From the NCBI RefSeq assembly GCF_057098645.1, contig NZ_CM169472.1: 64,000 bases of DNA. The stretch is one strand, 5' to 3'. Below, piece after piece: positions 42,342 to 45,300 of the stretch. Numbering within the stretch: the stretch's first letter is position 1; each line of letters opens with the position of its first letter. A program made the position numbers.

Positions 42342-45300
42342 TGACACTAACGCCCGCACATTGCTGCGGGCTTTTTGATTCATTTCGCAAATGTGCTGAC
42401 ATTTTCCCCTCTAATCCGTACCATACACGCCACAGTTTTTATATCAGATTTCTTATGCTGGGCGTTCCGGCATGACGCATACTCTTCTGATGCCATATAA
42501 CGAATTGAGTCGCTTTTAAATGTCGCAAAATCAAGAAATTAGCAAGAAAGAACAATACAATCTGAACAAATTACAAAAACGCCTGCGTCGTAACGTGGGC
42601 GAAGCCATTGCTGACTTCAATATGATTGAAGAAGGCGATCGCATCATGGTTTGCCTCTCCGGGGGTAAAGACAGCTATACCATGCTGGAGATTCTGCGCA
42701 ATTTGCAGCAAAGCGCGCCAATCAATTTTTCGCTGGTGGCTGTTAACCTCGATCAAAAGCAACCGGGCTTCCCGGAACACGTTCTGCCCGAGTATCTTGA
42801 AAAGCTGGGCGTTGAGTACAAGATTGTTGAAGAGAACACTTACGGTATCGTGAAAGAGAAGATTCCAGAGGGCAAAACCACTTGCTCACTGTGTTCTCGG
42901 CTACGTCGCGGTATCCTTTATCGCACCGCAACGGAACTGGGGGCGACGAAGATCGCGTTGGGCCACCATCGTGACGATATCCTGCAAACGTTGTTCTTAA
43001 ATATGTTCTACGGCGGCAAGATGAAAGGTATGCCTCCGAAACTGATGAGCGATGATGGCAAACATATCGTTATTCGTCCGCTAGCCTACTGCCGCGAGAA
43101 AGATATTCAGCGATTTGCCGATGCAAAAGCGTTCCCGATTATTCCGTGCAACCTGTGCGGTTCACAGCCTAACCTGCAACGTCAGGTGATTGCTGACATG
43201 TTGCGTGACTGGGATAAACGTTATCCAGGGCGTATCGAGACGATGTTCAGCGCGATGCAGAATGTGGTGCCGTCGCATCTGTGCGATACCAACCTGTTCG
43301 ATTTCAAAGGCATCACCCACGGTTCTGAAGTGGTTAACGGGGGTGATCTGGCGTTTGATCGCGAAGAGATCCCACTACAACCGGCGGGCTGGCAGCCAGA
43401 AGAAGATGAAAATCAGTTGGATGAGTTACGGCTGAATGTGGTTGAAGTGAAATAACCAGGATAGCGCCCGATGCGCAAGCGTATCGGGCTACTCTTATGG
43501 AGGCCGGATAAGACGCGGCCAGCGTCGCATCCGGCAATCCCGAATAAGATGTTTACTCTTGCACCCGGCAATTCAACATTTTATTATTTTAATAACCGCA
43601 CCCGGCACGTTTTTCCTTTAATCTTCCCGCCCTGTAACTGTTTCCATGCTTTATGAGCAACAGCCTGACGGACCGCGACATAGACATGCGCCGGATGCAC
43701 GGCGATTTTGCCAATATCTGCGCCATCAAGCCCGATATCTCCTGTCAGTGCACCTAATACATCACCCGGGCGCATTTTGGCTTTTTTCCCGCCATCGATA
43801 CACAACGTTGCCATTTCTGCTTCCAGCGTCACAATGGAACTATTAGCTGGCGGCGTTTGCCAGTTAAGTTTTATCTGCAACATGTCAGAAATGATATTGG
43901 CCCGCAGTGCTTCTTCCGGAGCACAGAAACTGATCGCCAGACCGCTATTTCCTGCACGAGCTGTACGACCGATGCGATGTACATGAACTTCAGGGTCCCA
44001 CGCCAGCTCAAAGTTCACCACCAGCTCAAGCGATTTAATATCCAGACCACGCGCAGCAACATCAGTCGCGACCAGTACACGGGCGCTACCGTTAGCAAAA
44101 CGTACCAGGGTCTGATCGCGATCGCGTTGCTCCAAATCGCCGTGTAATGACAATGCACTTTGCCCTACTTCATTCAGCGCGTCGCAGACAGCCTGGCAAT
44201 CTTTTTTGGTATTGCAAAACACCACGCAAGAGGATGGCTGATGCAAGCTTAATAACCGTTGCAACAGAGGAATTTTGCCTTTGCTGGATGTCTCATAAAA
44301 TTGTTGTTCAATGGGTGGCAAAGCATCTGTTGAGTCAATTTCAATCGCCAAAGGATCGCGTTGCACTCGTCCGCTGATTGCGGCGATGGCTTCCGGCCAG
44401 GTTGCCGAAAACAGAAGCGTCTGTCGAGATGCTGGCGCAAAACGGATGACATCATCAATGGCATCGCTAAATCCCATATCCAGCATGCGGTCGGCCTCAT
44501 CCATCACCAGCGTATTCAACGCATCCAGTGATACCGTGCCTTTTTGCAGGTGATCCAGCAAACGCCCCGGCGTTGCCACGATAATATGCGGCGCATGTTG
44601 CAACGAATCACGCTGCATACCGAACGGTTGACCACCGCACAACGTCAAAATTTTGGTATTTGGCAGAAAACGCGCCAGCCGACGCAATTCACCTGCCACC
44701 TGATCCGCCAGTTCACGCGTAGGACACAGCACTAAAGCCTGGGTTTGAAATAGCGACGCATCAATTTGCTGTAACAAGCCGAGGCCAAAAGCCGCCGTTT
44801 TGCCGCTGCCGGTTTTCGCCTGCACGCGAACATCTTTTCCGGCAAGGATCGCCGGAAGCGCGGCGGCCTGCACCGGCGTCATAGTTAAATAACCCAACTC
44901 ATTAAGGTTCGTGAGTTGGGCGGGAGGCAAAACATTCAGGGTAGAAAAAGCGGTCACAATCTATTCTCGTGGTCATCGACGCAAAGTTAGCAGGCGCGTA
45001 TCCTCGCAGATCTACGCTCACGATGCGACAATTTAATCGGTTCTTCATCGGGTGGTGGGTCAGGCATGGGTTGCGGGCGAGGGATCGGATCGGGCACTGG
45101 AACAGGATCGCCAGGAATCGGTTCAGGGACAGGAATTTGCAAATAAATAAGTGTCGTCATATTTCCCTCCGGTCATTGGGTGGACTCTTAAAGGGTAGAC
45201 GCTGATAAATAACAGGCAAAAAAAAGCCGACTCATCAAAGTCGGCGTCGTACGAATCAATTGTGCTATGCAGTAATTCAAAAAAGGAAGTAAGACAATAT

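What the first reader, a model, noticed from the sequence alone, without database searches (positions are those of the whole stretch)
43464..43536. REP/BIME palindromes between ttcA and dbpA
Two imperfect palindromes of the REP type lie in the convergent intergenic space and probably act as mRNA stabilisers or terminator substitutes. This is ordinary for E. coli.
Basis: seen in the sequence. Interest (0 to 1): 0.12.

Follow-up and report, generated by a model that had tools for sequence, protein, structure and literature searches.

The report
Ordinary REP/BIME hairpins after ttcA
The two palindromes between the converging genes ttcA and dbpA are real copies of E. coli's common REP repeat, already catalogued in K-12 as REP115, and they form the RNA hairpins where both messages were found to end, so this is an ordinary, known feature.

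Summary
Observation confirmed. The 128-nt gap between ttcA (42520-43455, +) and dbpA (43584-44957, -) holds two imperfect palindromes. Both fold stably on both strands.

Palindrome 2 (43499-43538) is a typical dispersed REP unit. It has at least 40 copies per E. coli genome and corresponds to the annotated K-12 REP115. Its GTAG head is mutated to GGAG.

Palindrome 1 (43466-43492) is not part of the REP115 annotation. It looked single-copy at first, and profile searches missed it. An exact-pattern scan of reference genomes then found 19 copies in Escherichia and Pseudocitrobacter, consensus GCCCGATGCGCAAGCTTATCGGGCCTAC. Most sit head-to-head with a second REP unit. It is therefore a low-copy variant of the short (Z1) REP unit.

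The pair is an atypical BIME with only a 6-nt head-to-head linker. A third, decayed unit lies at 43539-43572.

Published K-12 tables, covering identical sequence, list palindrome 2 as a bidirectional terminator for dbpA and ttcA in log and stationary phase. They also list a Rho-binding site and a bicyclomycin-sensitive read-through transcript on the ttcA strand.

The feature is already known and of low interest.

The parts
42520..43455 (+). ttcA coding sequence (tRNA 2-thiocytidine synthetase); stop codon TAA at 43453-43455
   Evidence: ORF list; RefSeq annotation of identical DNA; Pfam PP-loop family
43456..43465 (+). 10-nt spacer between the ttcA stop codon and the foot of palindrome 1. This is inside the 15-nt limit reported for REPs that impede the terminating ribosome.
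   Evidence: Sequence; fold; the rule of Liang et al. 2015 as summarised in PMC12306157
43466..43492 (-). Palindrome 1, a REP unit of a low-copy Z1 variant. On the - strand it reads GTAG-CCCGATACGCTTGCGCATCGGGC. The stem is 43466-43475 / 43480-43489 and the head (CTAC on +) is 43489-43492.
   Evidence: Inverted repeat I2. Hairpin -18.7 / -15.0 kcal/mol. Best match to the Z1 consensus in the whole window, score 15.0 against a noise maximum of 11 and a maximum of 14.5 over 40 shuffles. A 19-locus family with consensus GCCCGATGCGCAAGCTTATCGGGCCTAC, one copy of which lies between flgF and flgG.
43493..43498 (.). 6-nt head-to-head linker TCTTAT between the two units. It is much shorter than the 14-37 nt linkers seen at other loci.
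   Evidence: Sequence; comparison with K-12 BIMEs and with the family loci
43499..43538 (+). Palindrome 2, a canonical dispersed REP unit equal to K-12 REP115. It reads GGAG-GCCGGATAAGACGCGGCCAGCGTCGCATCCGGC-AAT. The outer stem is Y-type (CCGGAT), the core is Z2-type and the AA/GC bulge is present. The head is GGAG instead of GTAG.
   Evidence: Inverted repeat I1. Hairpin -23.3 / -22.8 kcal/mol. nhmmer E 1.3e-7 (Z2) and 8.7e-7 (Y). Partial Rfam naRNA4 match, E 0.0025. At least 40 places per genome. REP115 at 1410934-1410970 maps to window 43498-43534.
43539..43572 (+). Probable decayed third REP unit in direct orientation: CCGAATAAGA...GCACCCGGCAAT. It no longer folds. It is an indel flanked by the direct repeat CCGGCAAT.
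   Evidence: Direct repeats D1-D3. Second-best Y-consensus match in the window, though at noise level. No stable fold, z -0.1 and -1.2. Absent in E. whittamii and half absent in strain SCPM-O-B-8794.
43495..43541 (.). Equivalent of the K-12 'overlapping region' 1410927-1410973 of bidirectional terminator no. 113. dbpA transcripts end near 43495 and ttcA transcripts near 43541, on either side of palindrome 2.
   Evidence: Supplementary table of bioRxiv 10.64898/2026.03.23.713779. The K-12 and window sequences are identical here. Mapping: w = 1454468 - x.
43584..44957 (-). dbpA coding sequence (ATP-dependent RNA helicase); stop codon TAA at 43584-43586 (read on the - strand)
   Evidence: ORF list; annotation; Pfam DEAD, Helicase_C and DbpA domains

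Best explanation
This is a small, atypical BIME. It is a relic of E. coli's REP repeat family, the short palindromes thought to be spread by the REP-associated transposase. It consists of a rare Z1-variant unit (palindrome 1) and a common unit with a Y-type outer stem and Z2-type core (palindrome 2). The two sit head-to-head, 6 nt apart. A decayed third unit lies on the dbpA side.

The pair was already present before E. coli, E. whittamii and a related lineage diverged.

When transcribed, the units form stable GC-rich hairpins without U-tracts. The ttcA mRNA carries palindromes 1 and 2 at its 3' end. The dbpA mRNA carries palindrome 2. In K-12 the 3' ends of both convergent mRNAs map to the two sides of palindrome 2.

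The element therefore most likely works as a shared 3'-end determinant. It would do so partly by stopping or pausing RNA polymerase at a hairpin between converging polymerases, and partly by blocking 3'-to-5' exonucleases. Rho would remove the ttcA read-through that escapes into antisense dbpA.

Shown here or in the cited K-12 tables: identity as REP units, hairpin stability, position of the 3' ends, and the Rho-binding site and bicyclomycin-sensitive transcript. Inferred: the relative shares of termination and exonuclease blocking, and any effect of palindrome 1, 10 nt after the stop codon, on ttcA translation.
For: Identity as REP units:
- Palindrome 2 matches K-12 REP profiles and has at least 40 places per genome.
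- Palindrome 2 coincides with K-12 REP115.
- Palindrome 1 has a GTAG head and belongs to a 19-locus family. In 12-13 of the 16 loci outside ttcA-dbpA it sits head-to-head with a second REP unit.
- One copy of that family lies between flgF and flgG.

Structure: both palindromes form stable hairpins on both strands.

Function (K-12, identical sequence):
- Bidirectional terminator no. 113 covers palindrome 2. It was detected in log and stationary phase and has only 1-2 U in each flank.
- An in vitro Rho-binding peak spans 1410799-1411007 on the ttcA strand, and a bicyclomycin-sensitive transcript spans 1410132-1410912.
- The same preprint shows, for REP325, a dual role as partial Rho-dependent terminator and mRNA stabiliser.

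Age: the pair is present in E. whittamii and in strain SCPM-O-B-8794. Stems are kept there while loops differ.
Against: - No canonical terminator is found at either palindrome on the relevant strands; the simple scan returned only one weak site on the - strand at 43472-43455.
- 3'-end mapping cannot tell termination from trimming back to a hairpin.
- Within E. coli, palindrome 2 carries uncompensated stem-breaking changes: two broken pairs in O157:H7, a 1-nt deletion in strain R4, and a broken pair in GF131 and AVS0096. This argues for weak selection on its structure.
- Genome-wide, REPs at mRNA ends are not associated with longer half-lives.
- All functional data come from K-12, not from the strain of this window.
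Confidence: 0.8

Rival explanations
1. Palindrome 1 is not a REP. It is a gene-specific 3' hairpin of ttcA (its own terminator or stabiliser) that merely resembles one. Only palindrome 2 is a REP, so there is no BIME.
For: The K-12 annotation REP115 spans only 37 nt, which is palindrome 2. blastn finds a median of 2 places per genome for palindrome 1. nhmmer profiles of K-12 REP units and Rfam naRNA4 do not hit it. It is the best-conserved part of the gap among 7 strains, with 3 of 24 columns variable.
Against: It has an exact GTAG head abutting the stem. It is the best Z1-consensus match in the 64-kb window. The same sequence recurs at 16 other loci in Escherichia and Pseudocitrobacter. There it mostly has a CCTAC head and an inverted REP unit 14-37 nt away, which is the BIME arrangement. 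No U-tract follows it, and the mapped ttcA 3' end lies beyond palindrome 2 rather than after palindrome 1.
Confidence: 0.04
2. The element is a neutral, decaying relic of a selfish repeat. The 3' ends that map to it are incidental consequences of any stable hairpin and are not maintained by selection.
For: The GTAG head of palindrome 2 is mutated to GGAG, while E. whittamii keeps GTAG. The E. coli REP transposase tolerates no GTAG mutation (PMC8266576). Stem breaks in several E. coli lineages are uncompensated. The third unit has decayed and is polymorphic as an indel. Genome-wide, REPs show no effect on half-life.
Against: The pair has persisted across Escherichia species with stems kept while loops changed. 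3' ends of both genes map here in two growth phases. Convergent gene pairs with REPs are expressed more highly than those without. This rival does not exclude the main explanation; it disputes selection, not mechanism.
Confidence: 0.3
3. The main role is at the DNA level. The element would be a binding or cleavage site for DNA gyrase or other nucleoid proteins, relieving the positive supercoiling that builds up between two converging genes.
For: From established knowledge of BIMEs, not tested here: BIME-2 elements are gyrase targets and BIME-1 elements bind IHF. The convergent location fits this idea.
Against: The long linker carrying the IHF-like sequence, seen at the sister loci, is absent here; the linker is only 6 nt. 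There is a single pair rather than the tandem arrays typical of gyrase-binding BIME-2. The REP325 study found no measurable role in chromosome compaction. No gyrase data were examined here.
Confidence: 0.1
4. Palindrome 1 acts mainly on translation. Its foot lies 10 nt after the ttcA stop codon, so it would stall the terminating ribosome and lower TtcA output, as reported for REPs within 15 nt of a stop codon.
For: The 10-nt spacing. A stable 10-bp stem on the ttcA strand, -18.7 kcal/mol. The rule of Liang et al. 2015 as summarised in PMC12306157. Palindrome 1 is the most conserved part of the gap.
Against: This was not tested for ttcA, and I could not read the original paper. The effect would add to, not replace, the 3'-end role.
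Confidence: 0.25

Closest known systems
REP115 of E. coli K-12 MG1655 (annotated REP element between dbpA and ttcA, 1410934-1410970)
   Same: It is the same locus with identical sequence. Palindrome 2 is this element. It is listed as convergent, overlapping bidirectional terminator no. 113 and a Rho-binding peak.
   Different: The annotation covers one unit only. Palindrome 1 and the decayed third unit are not included.
BIME-1-type elements (a short Z1 unit, a long linker with an IHF-like site and a Y unit), for example in the flgF-flgG gap
   Same: Palindrome 1 is the same CCCGAT variant of the Z1 unit found there, and it also faces a CCGGAT-stem unit head-to-head.
   Different: The 30-37 nt linker is replaced here by 6 nt. 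The partner unit has a Z2-type core rather than the Y core GGCGTTCACGCC.
REP325 / naRNA4 (12-unit array between yjdM and yjdN, Rfam RF02564)
   Same: The unit family is the same: palindrome 2 aligns to half of the naRNA4 model and to the units of REP325. The proposed dual role, partial terminator plus mRNA stabiliser, is the model used here.
   Different: REP325 has 12 alternating units between tandem genes, with 17-nt and roughly 8-nt linkers. This element has 2 to 3 units between convergent genes. Rho dependence of REP325 needed the full array.
Hairpin-type bidirectional terminators between convergent genes
   Same: One hairpin serves both strands, and the 3' ends of the opposing transcripts overlap across it.
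   Different: Canonical examples have A-tracts and U-tracts on both sides. This one has only 1-2 U in each flank and was not picked up by the terminator scan.

Membership tests
REP (repetitive extragenic palindrome), palindrome 2 | Imperfect palindrome of 20-50 nt able to form a stem-loop | tested here: met
   33-nt palindrome, 86% complementary; -23.3 / -22.8 kcal/mol, z -4.9 / -4.6
REP, palindrome 2 | [quoted passage not shown] | tested here: not met
   The head is GGAG in this window and in 6 of 7 E. coli strains, and GGAA in R4. The E. whittamii orthologue has GTAG, so this is a derived point mutation in a true family member.
REP, palindrome 2 | High copy number, dispersed over the genome | tested here: met
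REP, palindrome 2 | Sequence match to the Y/Z1/Z2 consensus, including the AA/GC bulge | tested here: met
   nhmmer E 1.3e-7 (Z2) and 8.7e-7 (Y) against profiles built from 61 K-12 units, with this locus excluded. GAT-AA-GACGC...GCGTC-GC-ATC is present.
REP, palindrome 2 | Extragenic location | tested here: met
   Lies in the 128-nt gap between the ttcA and dbpA stop codons
REP, palindrome 1 | Imperfect palindrome with a GTAG head | tested here: met
   GTAG at 43492-43489 on the - strand abuts the stem. 10-bp stem with one G-U (+ strand) or A-C (- strand) position.
REP, palindrome 1 | Repeated and dispersed | tested here: inconclusive
   Only a median of 2 places per E. coli genome. The exact-pattern scan gives 2-4 copies per genome in Escherichia and 1-2 in Pseudocitrobacter, 19 loci in all. 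It is repeated and dispersed, but at low copy.
REP, palindrome 1 | Sequence match to a known unit type (Z1) | tested here: inconclusive
   nhmmer finds nothing significant. The query-global alignment to the Z1 consensus is the best in the window (15.0; maximum of 40 shuffles 14.5). By hand the match is about 72% with 2 gaps. Membership rests mainly on the family context.
BIME (bacterial interspersed mosaic element) | Two REP units in inverse orientation separated by a linker (PMC8266576) | tested here: met
   Palindrome 1 reads on the - strand and palindrome 2 on the + strand. Their heads face each other across 6 nt.
BIME | Standard linker motifs: the long IHF-site linker of BIME-1, or the short motifs of BIME-2, often in tandem arrays | tested here: not met
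   The linker is TCTTAT (6 nt), against 14-17 nt in K-12 BIMEs and 14-37 nt at the sister loci. There is no tandem array. It therefore counts as an atypical BIME.
Substrate of the REP-associated transposase (TnpA-REP / RAYT) | Binding and cleavage by the enzyme, which requires an intact GTAG | not testable with these tools
   From PMC8266576, palindrome 2 (GGAG) is predicted to be inactive. Palindrome 1 (GTAG) could still be recognised.
Intrinsic (Rho-independent) terminator | GC-rich hairpin directly followed by a U-tract | tested here: not met
   The scan finds no such site at either palindrome on the sense strands. The flanks of palindrome 2 hold 1-2 U.

The most novel reading that the evidence does not exclude
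Palindrome 1 would represent a so-far unnamed, low-copy 'CCCGAT' sub-family of the Z1 REP unit, shared by Escherichia and Pseudocitrobacter. At ttcA it would have been domesticated: it is better conserved than its canonical neighbour and sits 10 nt after the stop codon. There it would tune TtcA output by stalling the terminating ribosome, in addition to protecting the mRNA 3' end.
Probability: 0.15. Interest if true: 0.25.

Novelty: already known. Interest (0 to 1): 0.08.

Why it matters
It matters little beyond careful annotation. REP elements between convergent genes are common in E. coli, and this one is already catalogued (REP115) and covered by published 3'-end and Rho-binding maps. Three small additions come out of this work. 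The neighbouring hairpin is also a REP unit, of a rare variant that standard profiles and the K-12 annotation miss. The locus holds a decayed third unit that varies as an indel between Escherichia species. The common unit has lost the GTAG head needed by the REP transposase. These points may help anyone curating REP catalogues or studying the ttcA and dbpA 3' UTRs.

Tried and rejected
- The RefSeq K-12 record gave no direct confirmation. This copy shows no repeat features over 47 kb, so their absence says nothing. The REP115 coordinates came instead from a preprint's supplementary tables.
- A REP-head pattern and a regex scan found no other REP in the window or in the neighbouring 47 kb of K-12. 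A reference set therefore had to be built from five other 50-kb K-12 stretches.
- nhmmer profiles and Rfam did not recognise palindrome 1. Taken alone, this would have wrongly suggested it is not a REP.
- The window-wide significance of the Z1-consensus alignment is only marginal. I do not rely on it by itself.
- The third unit is at noise level in every sequence test and does not fold. I call it a decayed unit only because of the direct repeats and the indel pattern.
- The simple terminator scan gave one weak site on the - strand at 43472-43455 (6 pairs, overlapping the ttcA stop). I set it aside because it lies beyond the mapped dbpA 3' end.
- The original paper on REPs and translation could not be read, so its finding is cited second-hand from PMC12306157.
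- The preprint's reference list is not held. I believe, from my own knowledge, that the bidirectional-terminator table comes from Ju, Li and Liu 2019 (SEnd-seq), but I could not verify this.
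Full report
**1. The observation**

The window carries ttcA at 42520-43455 (+) and dbpA at 43584-44957 (-). They converge on a 128-nt gap. The gene identities rest on three things:
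- RefSeq annotation of identical or near-identical DNA in 5,402 of 5,426 complete E. coli genomes.
- The annotated O145 and K-12 loci.
- Pfam domains: PP-loop for ttcA; DEAD, Helicase_C and DbpA for dbpA.

- 43466-43476 / 43479-43489, 91% complementary.
- 43503-43516 / 43522-43535, 86% complementary.

Each forms a stable hairpin on both strands:
- Palindrome 1: -18.7 kcal/mol on + and -15.0 on - (z -4.1 and -2.7).
- Palindrome 2: -23.3 on + and -22.8 on - (z -4.9 and -4.6).

The whole gap folds at -54.3 kcal/mol, z -4.8.

**2. Palindrome 2 is a standard REP**

Its sequence, GGAG-GCCGGATAAGACGCGGCCAGCGTCGCATCCGGC-AAT (43499-43538), has at least 40 places per genome in 5,425 of 5,426 E. coli genomes. 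It also gives a partial match to Rfam naRNA4, which is derived from REP325 (E 0.0025).

To obtain a reference set I read REP325 and five further 50-kb stretches of K-12 and extracted 61 units, 41 of them distinct. They fall into three types:
- Y: GTAGGCCGGATAAGGCGTTCACGCCGCATCCGGCA.
- Short Z1: GTAGGCCTGATAAGCGTAGCGCATCAGGCA.
- Long Z2: GTAGGCCTGATAAGACGCGnnAGCGTCGCATCAGGCA.

I assigned these names from the statement that REP325 alternates Z2 and Y units and from the sequences.

Profiles built without the ttcA locus hit palindrome 2 at E 1.3e-7 (Z2) and 8.7e-7 (Y). It combines a Y-type outer stem with a Z2-type core and keeps the AA/GC bulge. Its head is GGAG rather than GTAG.

In K-12 the element is annotated as REP115, 1410934-1410970. 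This maps to window 43498-43534 using w = 1454468 - x (supplement of bioRxiv 10.64898/2026.03.23.713779).

**3. Palindrome 1 is also a REP unit, but a rare one**

REP115 does not include it. blastn finds a median of only 2 places per genome. The profiles and Rfam miss it.

However, on the - strand it reads GTAG-CCCGATACGCTTGCGCATCGGGC, with an exact GTAG head. A query-global alignment to the Z1 consensus makes it the best match in the whole window: 15.0 against a noise ceiling of 11. The maximum over 40 dinucleotide shuffles is 14.5, so on its own this is marginal.

The weakest blastn record pointed to a second copy between flgF and flgG. There GCCCGATGCGCAAGCTTATCGGGTCTAT is followed, after about 45 nt, by a canonical GTAG-Y unit.

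An exact-pattern scan of one genome per species (GCCCGATRCGCAARCKTATCGGG; chance expectation about 0.07) returned 19 loci:
- Four in E. albertii.
- Three each in two unnamed Escherichia species.
- Two each in a 'E. coli'-labelled strain and a Pseudocitrobacter MAG.
- Single copies in E. whittamii, two named Pseudocitrobacter species, E. coli strain E69 and a 'Proteobacteria' MAG that is essentially E. coli.

Of the 16 loci that are not ttcA-dbpA, 13 continue with CCTAC, that is, a GTAGG head. Twelve or thirteen have a second unit (some truncated) facing them head-to-head 14-37 nt away. The linker often reads like caatttattgaatttgca. From established knowledge this resembles the IHF-site linker of BIME-1; I did not test IHF binding.

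Palindrome 1 differs from this family consensus by one T-to-G change and one missing C. Strains GF131, SCPM-O-B-8794 and E. whittamii carry the consensus T. I conclude that palindrome 1 is a low-copy CCCGAT variant of the Z1 unit.

**4. Architecture**

The two units face each other head-to-head across only 6 nt (TCTTAT, 43493-43498). K-12 BIMEs have 14-17 nt between heads. The pair therefore meets the general definition of a BIME, two units in inverse orientation with a linker (PMC8266576). It lacks the standard linker motifs and the tandem arrays, so it is an atypical BIME.

The segment 43539-43572 (CCGAATAAGA...GCACCCGGCAAT) repeats both ends of palindrome 2 in direct orientation (D1-D3). 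It does not fold and scores at noise level. It is absent in E. whittamii, where GGCAA(T) runs straight into TCAACATTT, and is half missing in strain SCPM-O-B-8794. It is bounded by the direct repeat CCGGCAAT. It is most simply read as a decayed duplicate unit.

**5. Evolution**

Palindromes 1 and 2 are present in E. coli, E. whittamii and SCPM-O-B-8794. Stems are retained while the loop of palindrome 2 differs: GGCCA, CGCCA and TTCCCC. The pair therefore predates these lineages.

E. whittamii has a canonical GTAG head on palindrome 2, so the E. coli GGAG is derived. Because the E. coli REP transposase tolerates no GTAG mutation (PMC8266576), this unit is probably immobile.

Among seven E. coli strains:
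- Palindrome 1 varies at 3 of 24 columns. One change makes the stem perfect.
- Palindrome 2 varies at 8 of 37 columns. These include uncompensated breaks: two pairs in O157:H7, a 1-nt deletion in R4, and one pair in GF131 and AVS0096.
- The third-unit region varies at 10 of 34 columns.

The sample is small, but it suggests weak constraint on palindrome 2 and stronger constraint on palindrome 1.

**6. How it most likely works**

Neither palindrome is followed by a U-tract. The terminator scan does not report them on the sense strands.

The K-12 tables compiled in the preprint cover sequence identical to this window. They list 'overlapping region' no. 113 at 1410927-1410973 (window 43541-43495). 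It is a convergent-transcription bidirectional terminator detected in log and stationary phase, affecting fnrS:dbpA:ttcA:intR, with 1 and 2 U in its flanks, and overlapping REP115 by 36 nt.

Read literally, dbpA transcripts end just past palindrome 2, before reaching palindrome 1. ttcA transcripts run through palindromes 1 and 2 and end just past palindrome 2.

The same supplement lists an in vitro Rho-binding peak on the ttcA-sense strand at 1410799-1411007 (window 43669-43461). It overlaps a bicyclomycin-sensitive transcript at 1410132-1410912, antisense to dbpA. So some ttcA transcription escapes the hairpins and is stopped by Rho inside antisense dbpA.

The preprint's experiments on REP325 support a dual role for REPs as partial, partly Rho-dependent terminators and as stabilisers of the upstream mRNA. 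[quoted passage not shown]

My best explanation is therefore a shared 3'-end determinant for two convergent mRNAs, with Rho as a backstop. The shares of true termination and exonuclease blocking remain unresolved.

An additional, untested effect is possible. The foot of palindrome 1 lies 10 nt after the ttcA stop codon. This is inside the 15-nt limit within which REPs were reported to stall terminating ribosomes and lower translation (Liang et al. 2015, cited from PMC12306157).

**7. Comparison with what is known, and verdict**

The element is REP115 of K-12 plus an unannotated neighbouring unit. It works like other REPs between convergent genes; about 30% of such gaps in E. coli hold one.

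On membership:
- REP family: solid for palindrome 2, with every feature met except the mutated head.
- REP family: good for palindrome 1, based on head, palindrome, extragenic location, a repeated family and BIME context. It is low-copy and profile searches do not detect it.
- BIME: met in the general sense only.

This is an ordinary, already-known feature and interest is low. The only modest additions are the recognition of the rare Z1 variant, the decayed third unit and its indel polymorphism, and the lost GTAG head.

Noticed in passing
window 17213-17238 (- strand): The 3' half of a REP unit (ACGCGTCAAGCGCCGCATCTGGCAAT) lies about 25 nt upstream of an ORF that starts near 17187 on the - strand. 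nhmmer gives Z2 E 0.0024 and Y E 0.027. It is a truncated REP remnant in a 5' region, which is an unusual position for REPs.
   Followed up: partly
window 40636-42520: In this window ttcA is directly preceded by a porin gene (40636-41769, Pfam Porin_1) and a universal-stress-protein gene (41838-42344). K-12 and O145 RM9872 instead have the Rac or Rac-like prophage (intR, xisR, ralR, recT, recE) at this point. The strain of the window therefore has an empty prophage site next to ttcA.
   Followed up: partly
window 43539-43572; L028 and L021: The 33-34 nt segment after palindrome 2 is an indel between Escherichia lineages. It is absent in E. whittamii and 14 nt shorter in strain SCPM-O-B-8794. 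It is bounded by the direct repeat CCGGCAAT.
   Followed up: yes
L009 1500-1600 (E. coli SL112, flgF-flgG gap) and loci L015-L033: A low-copy REP variant with consensus GCCCGATGCGCAAGCTTATCGGGCCTAC occurs 2-4 times per genome in Escherichia species. It also occurs in Pseudocitrobacter. It is usually followed by a roughly 30-nt AT-rich linker and a canonical GTAG-Y unit. The K-12-derived REP profiles do not detect it.
   Followed up: partly
L003 (NC_000913.3 1365000-1412000): The copy of the K-12 RefSeq record in the tool shows no repeat features over 47 kb, although REP114 and REP115 lie there according to the preprint's tables. Absence of a REP feature in this collection is therefore not evidence of absence. 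REP114 (the tyrR-tpx hairpin GCCTGATGGTGCAACACCATCAGGC) looks like a plain perfect hairpin rather than a typical REP unit.
   Followed up: no
L010 (E. coli O157:H7 F8952), columns 60-96 of alignment A1: In the O157:H7 lineage palindrome 2 has four substitutions. Two break outer-stem pairs and one turns a pair into a G-T wobble, with no compensation. The hairpin that marks the K-12 3' ends is therefore weakened in this pathotype.
   Followed up: no
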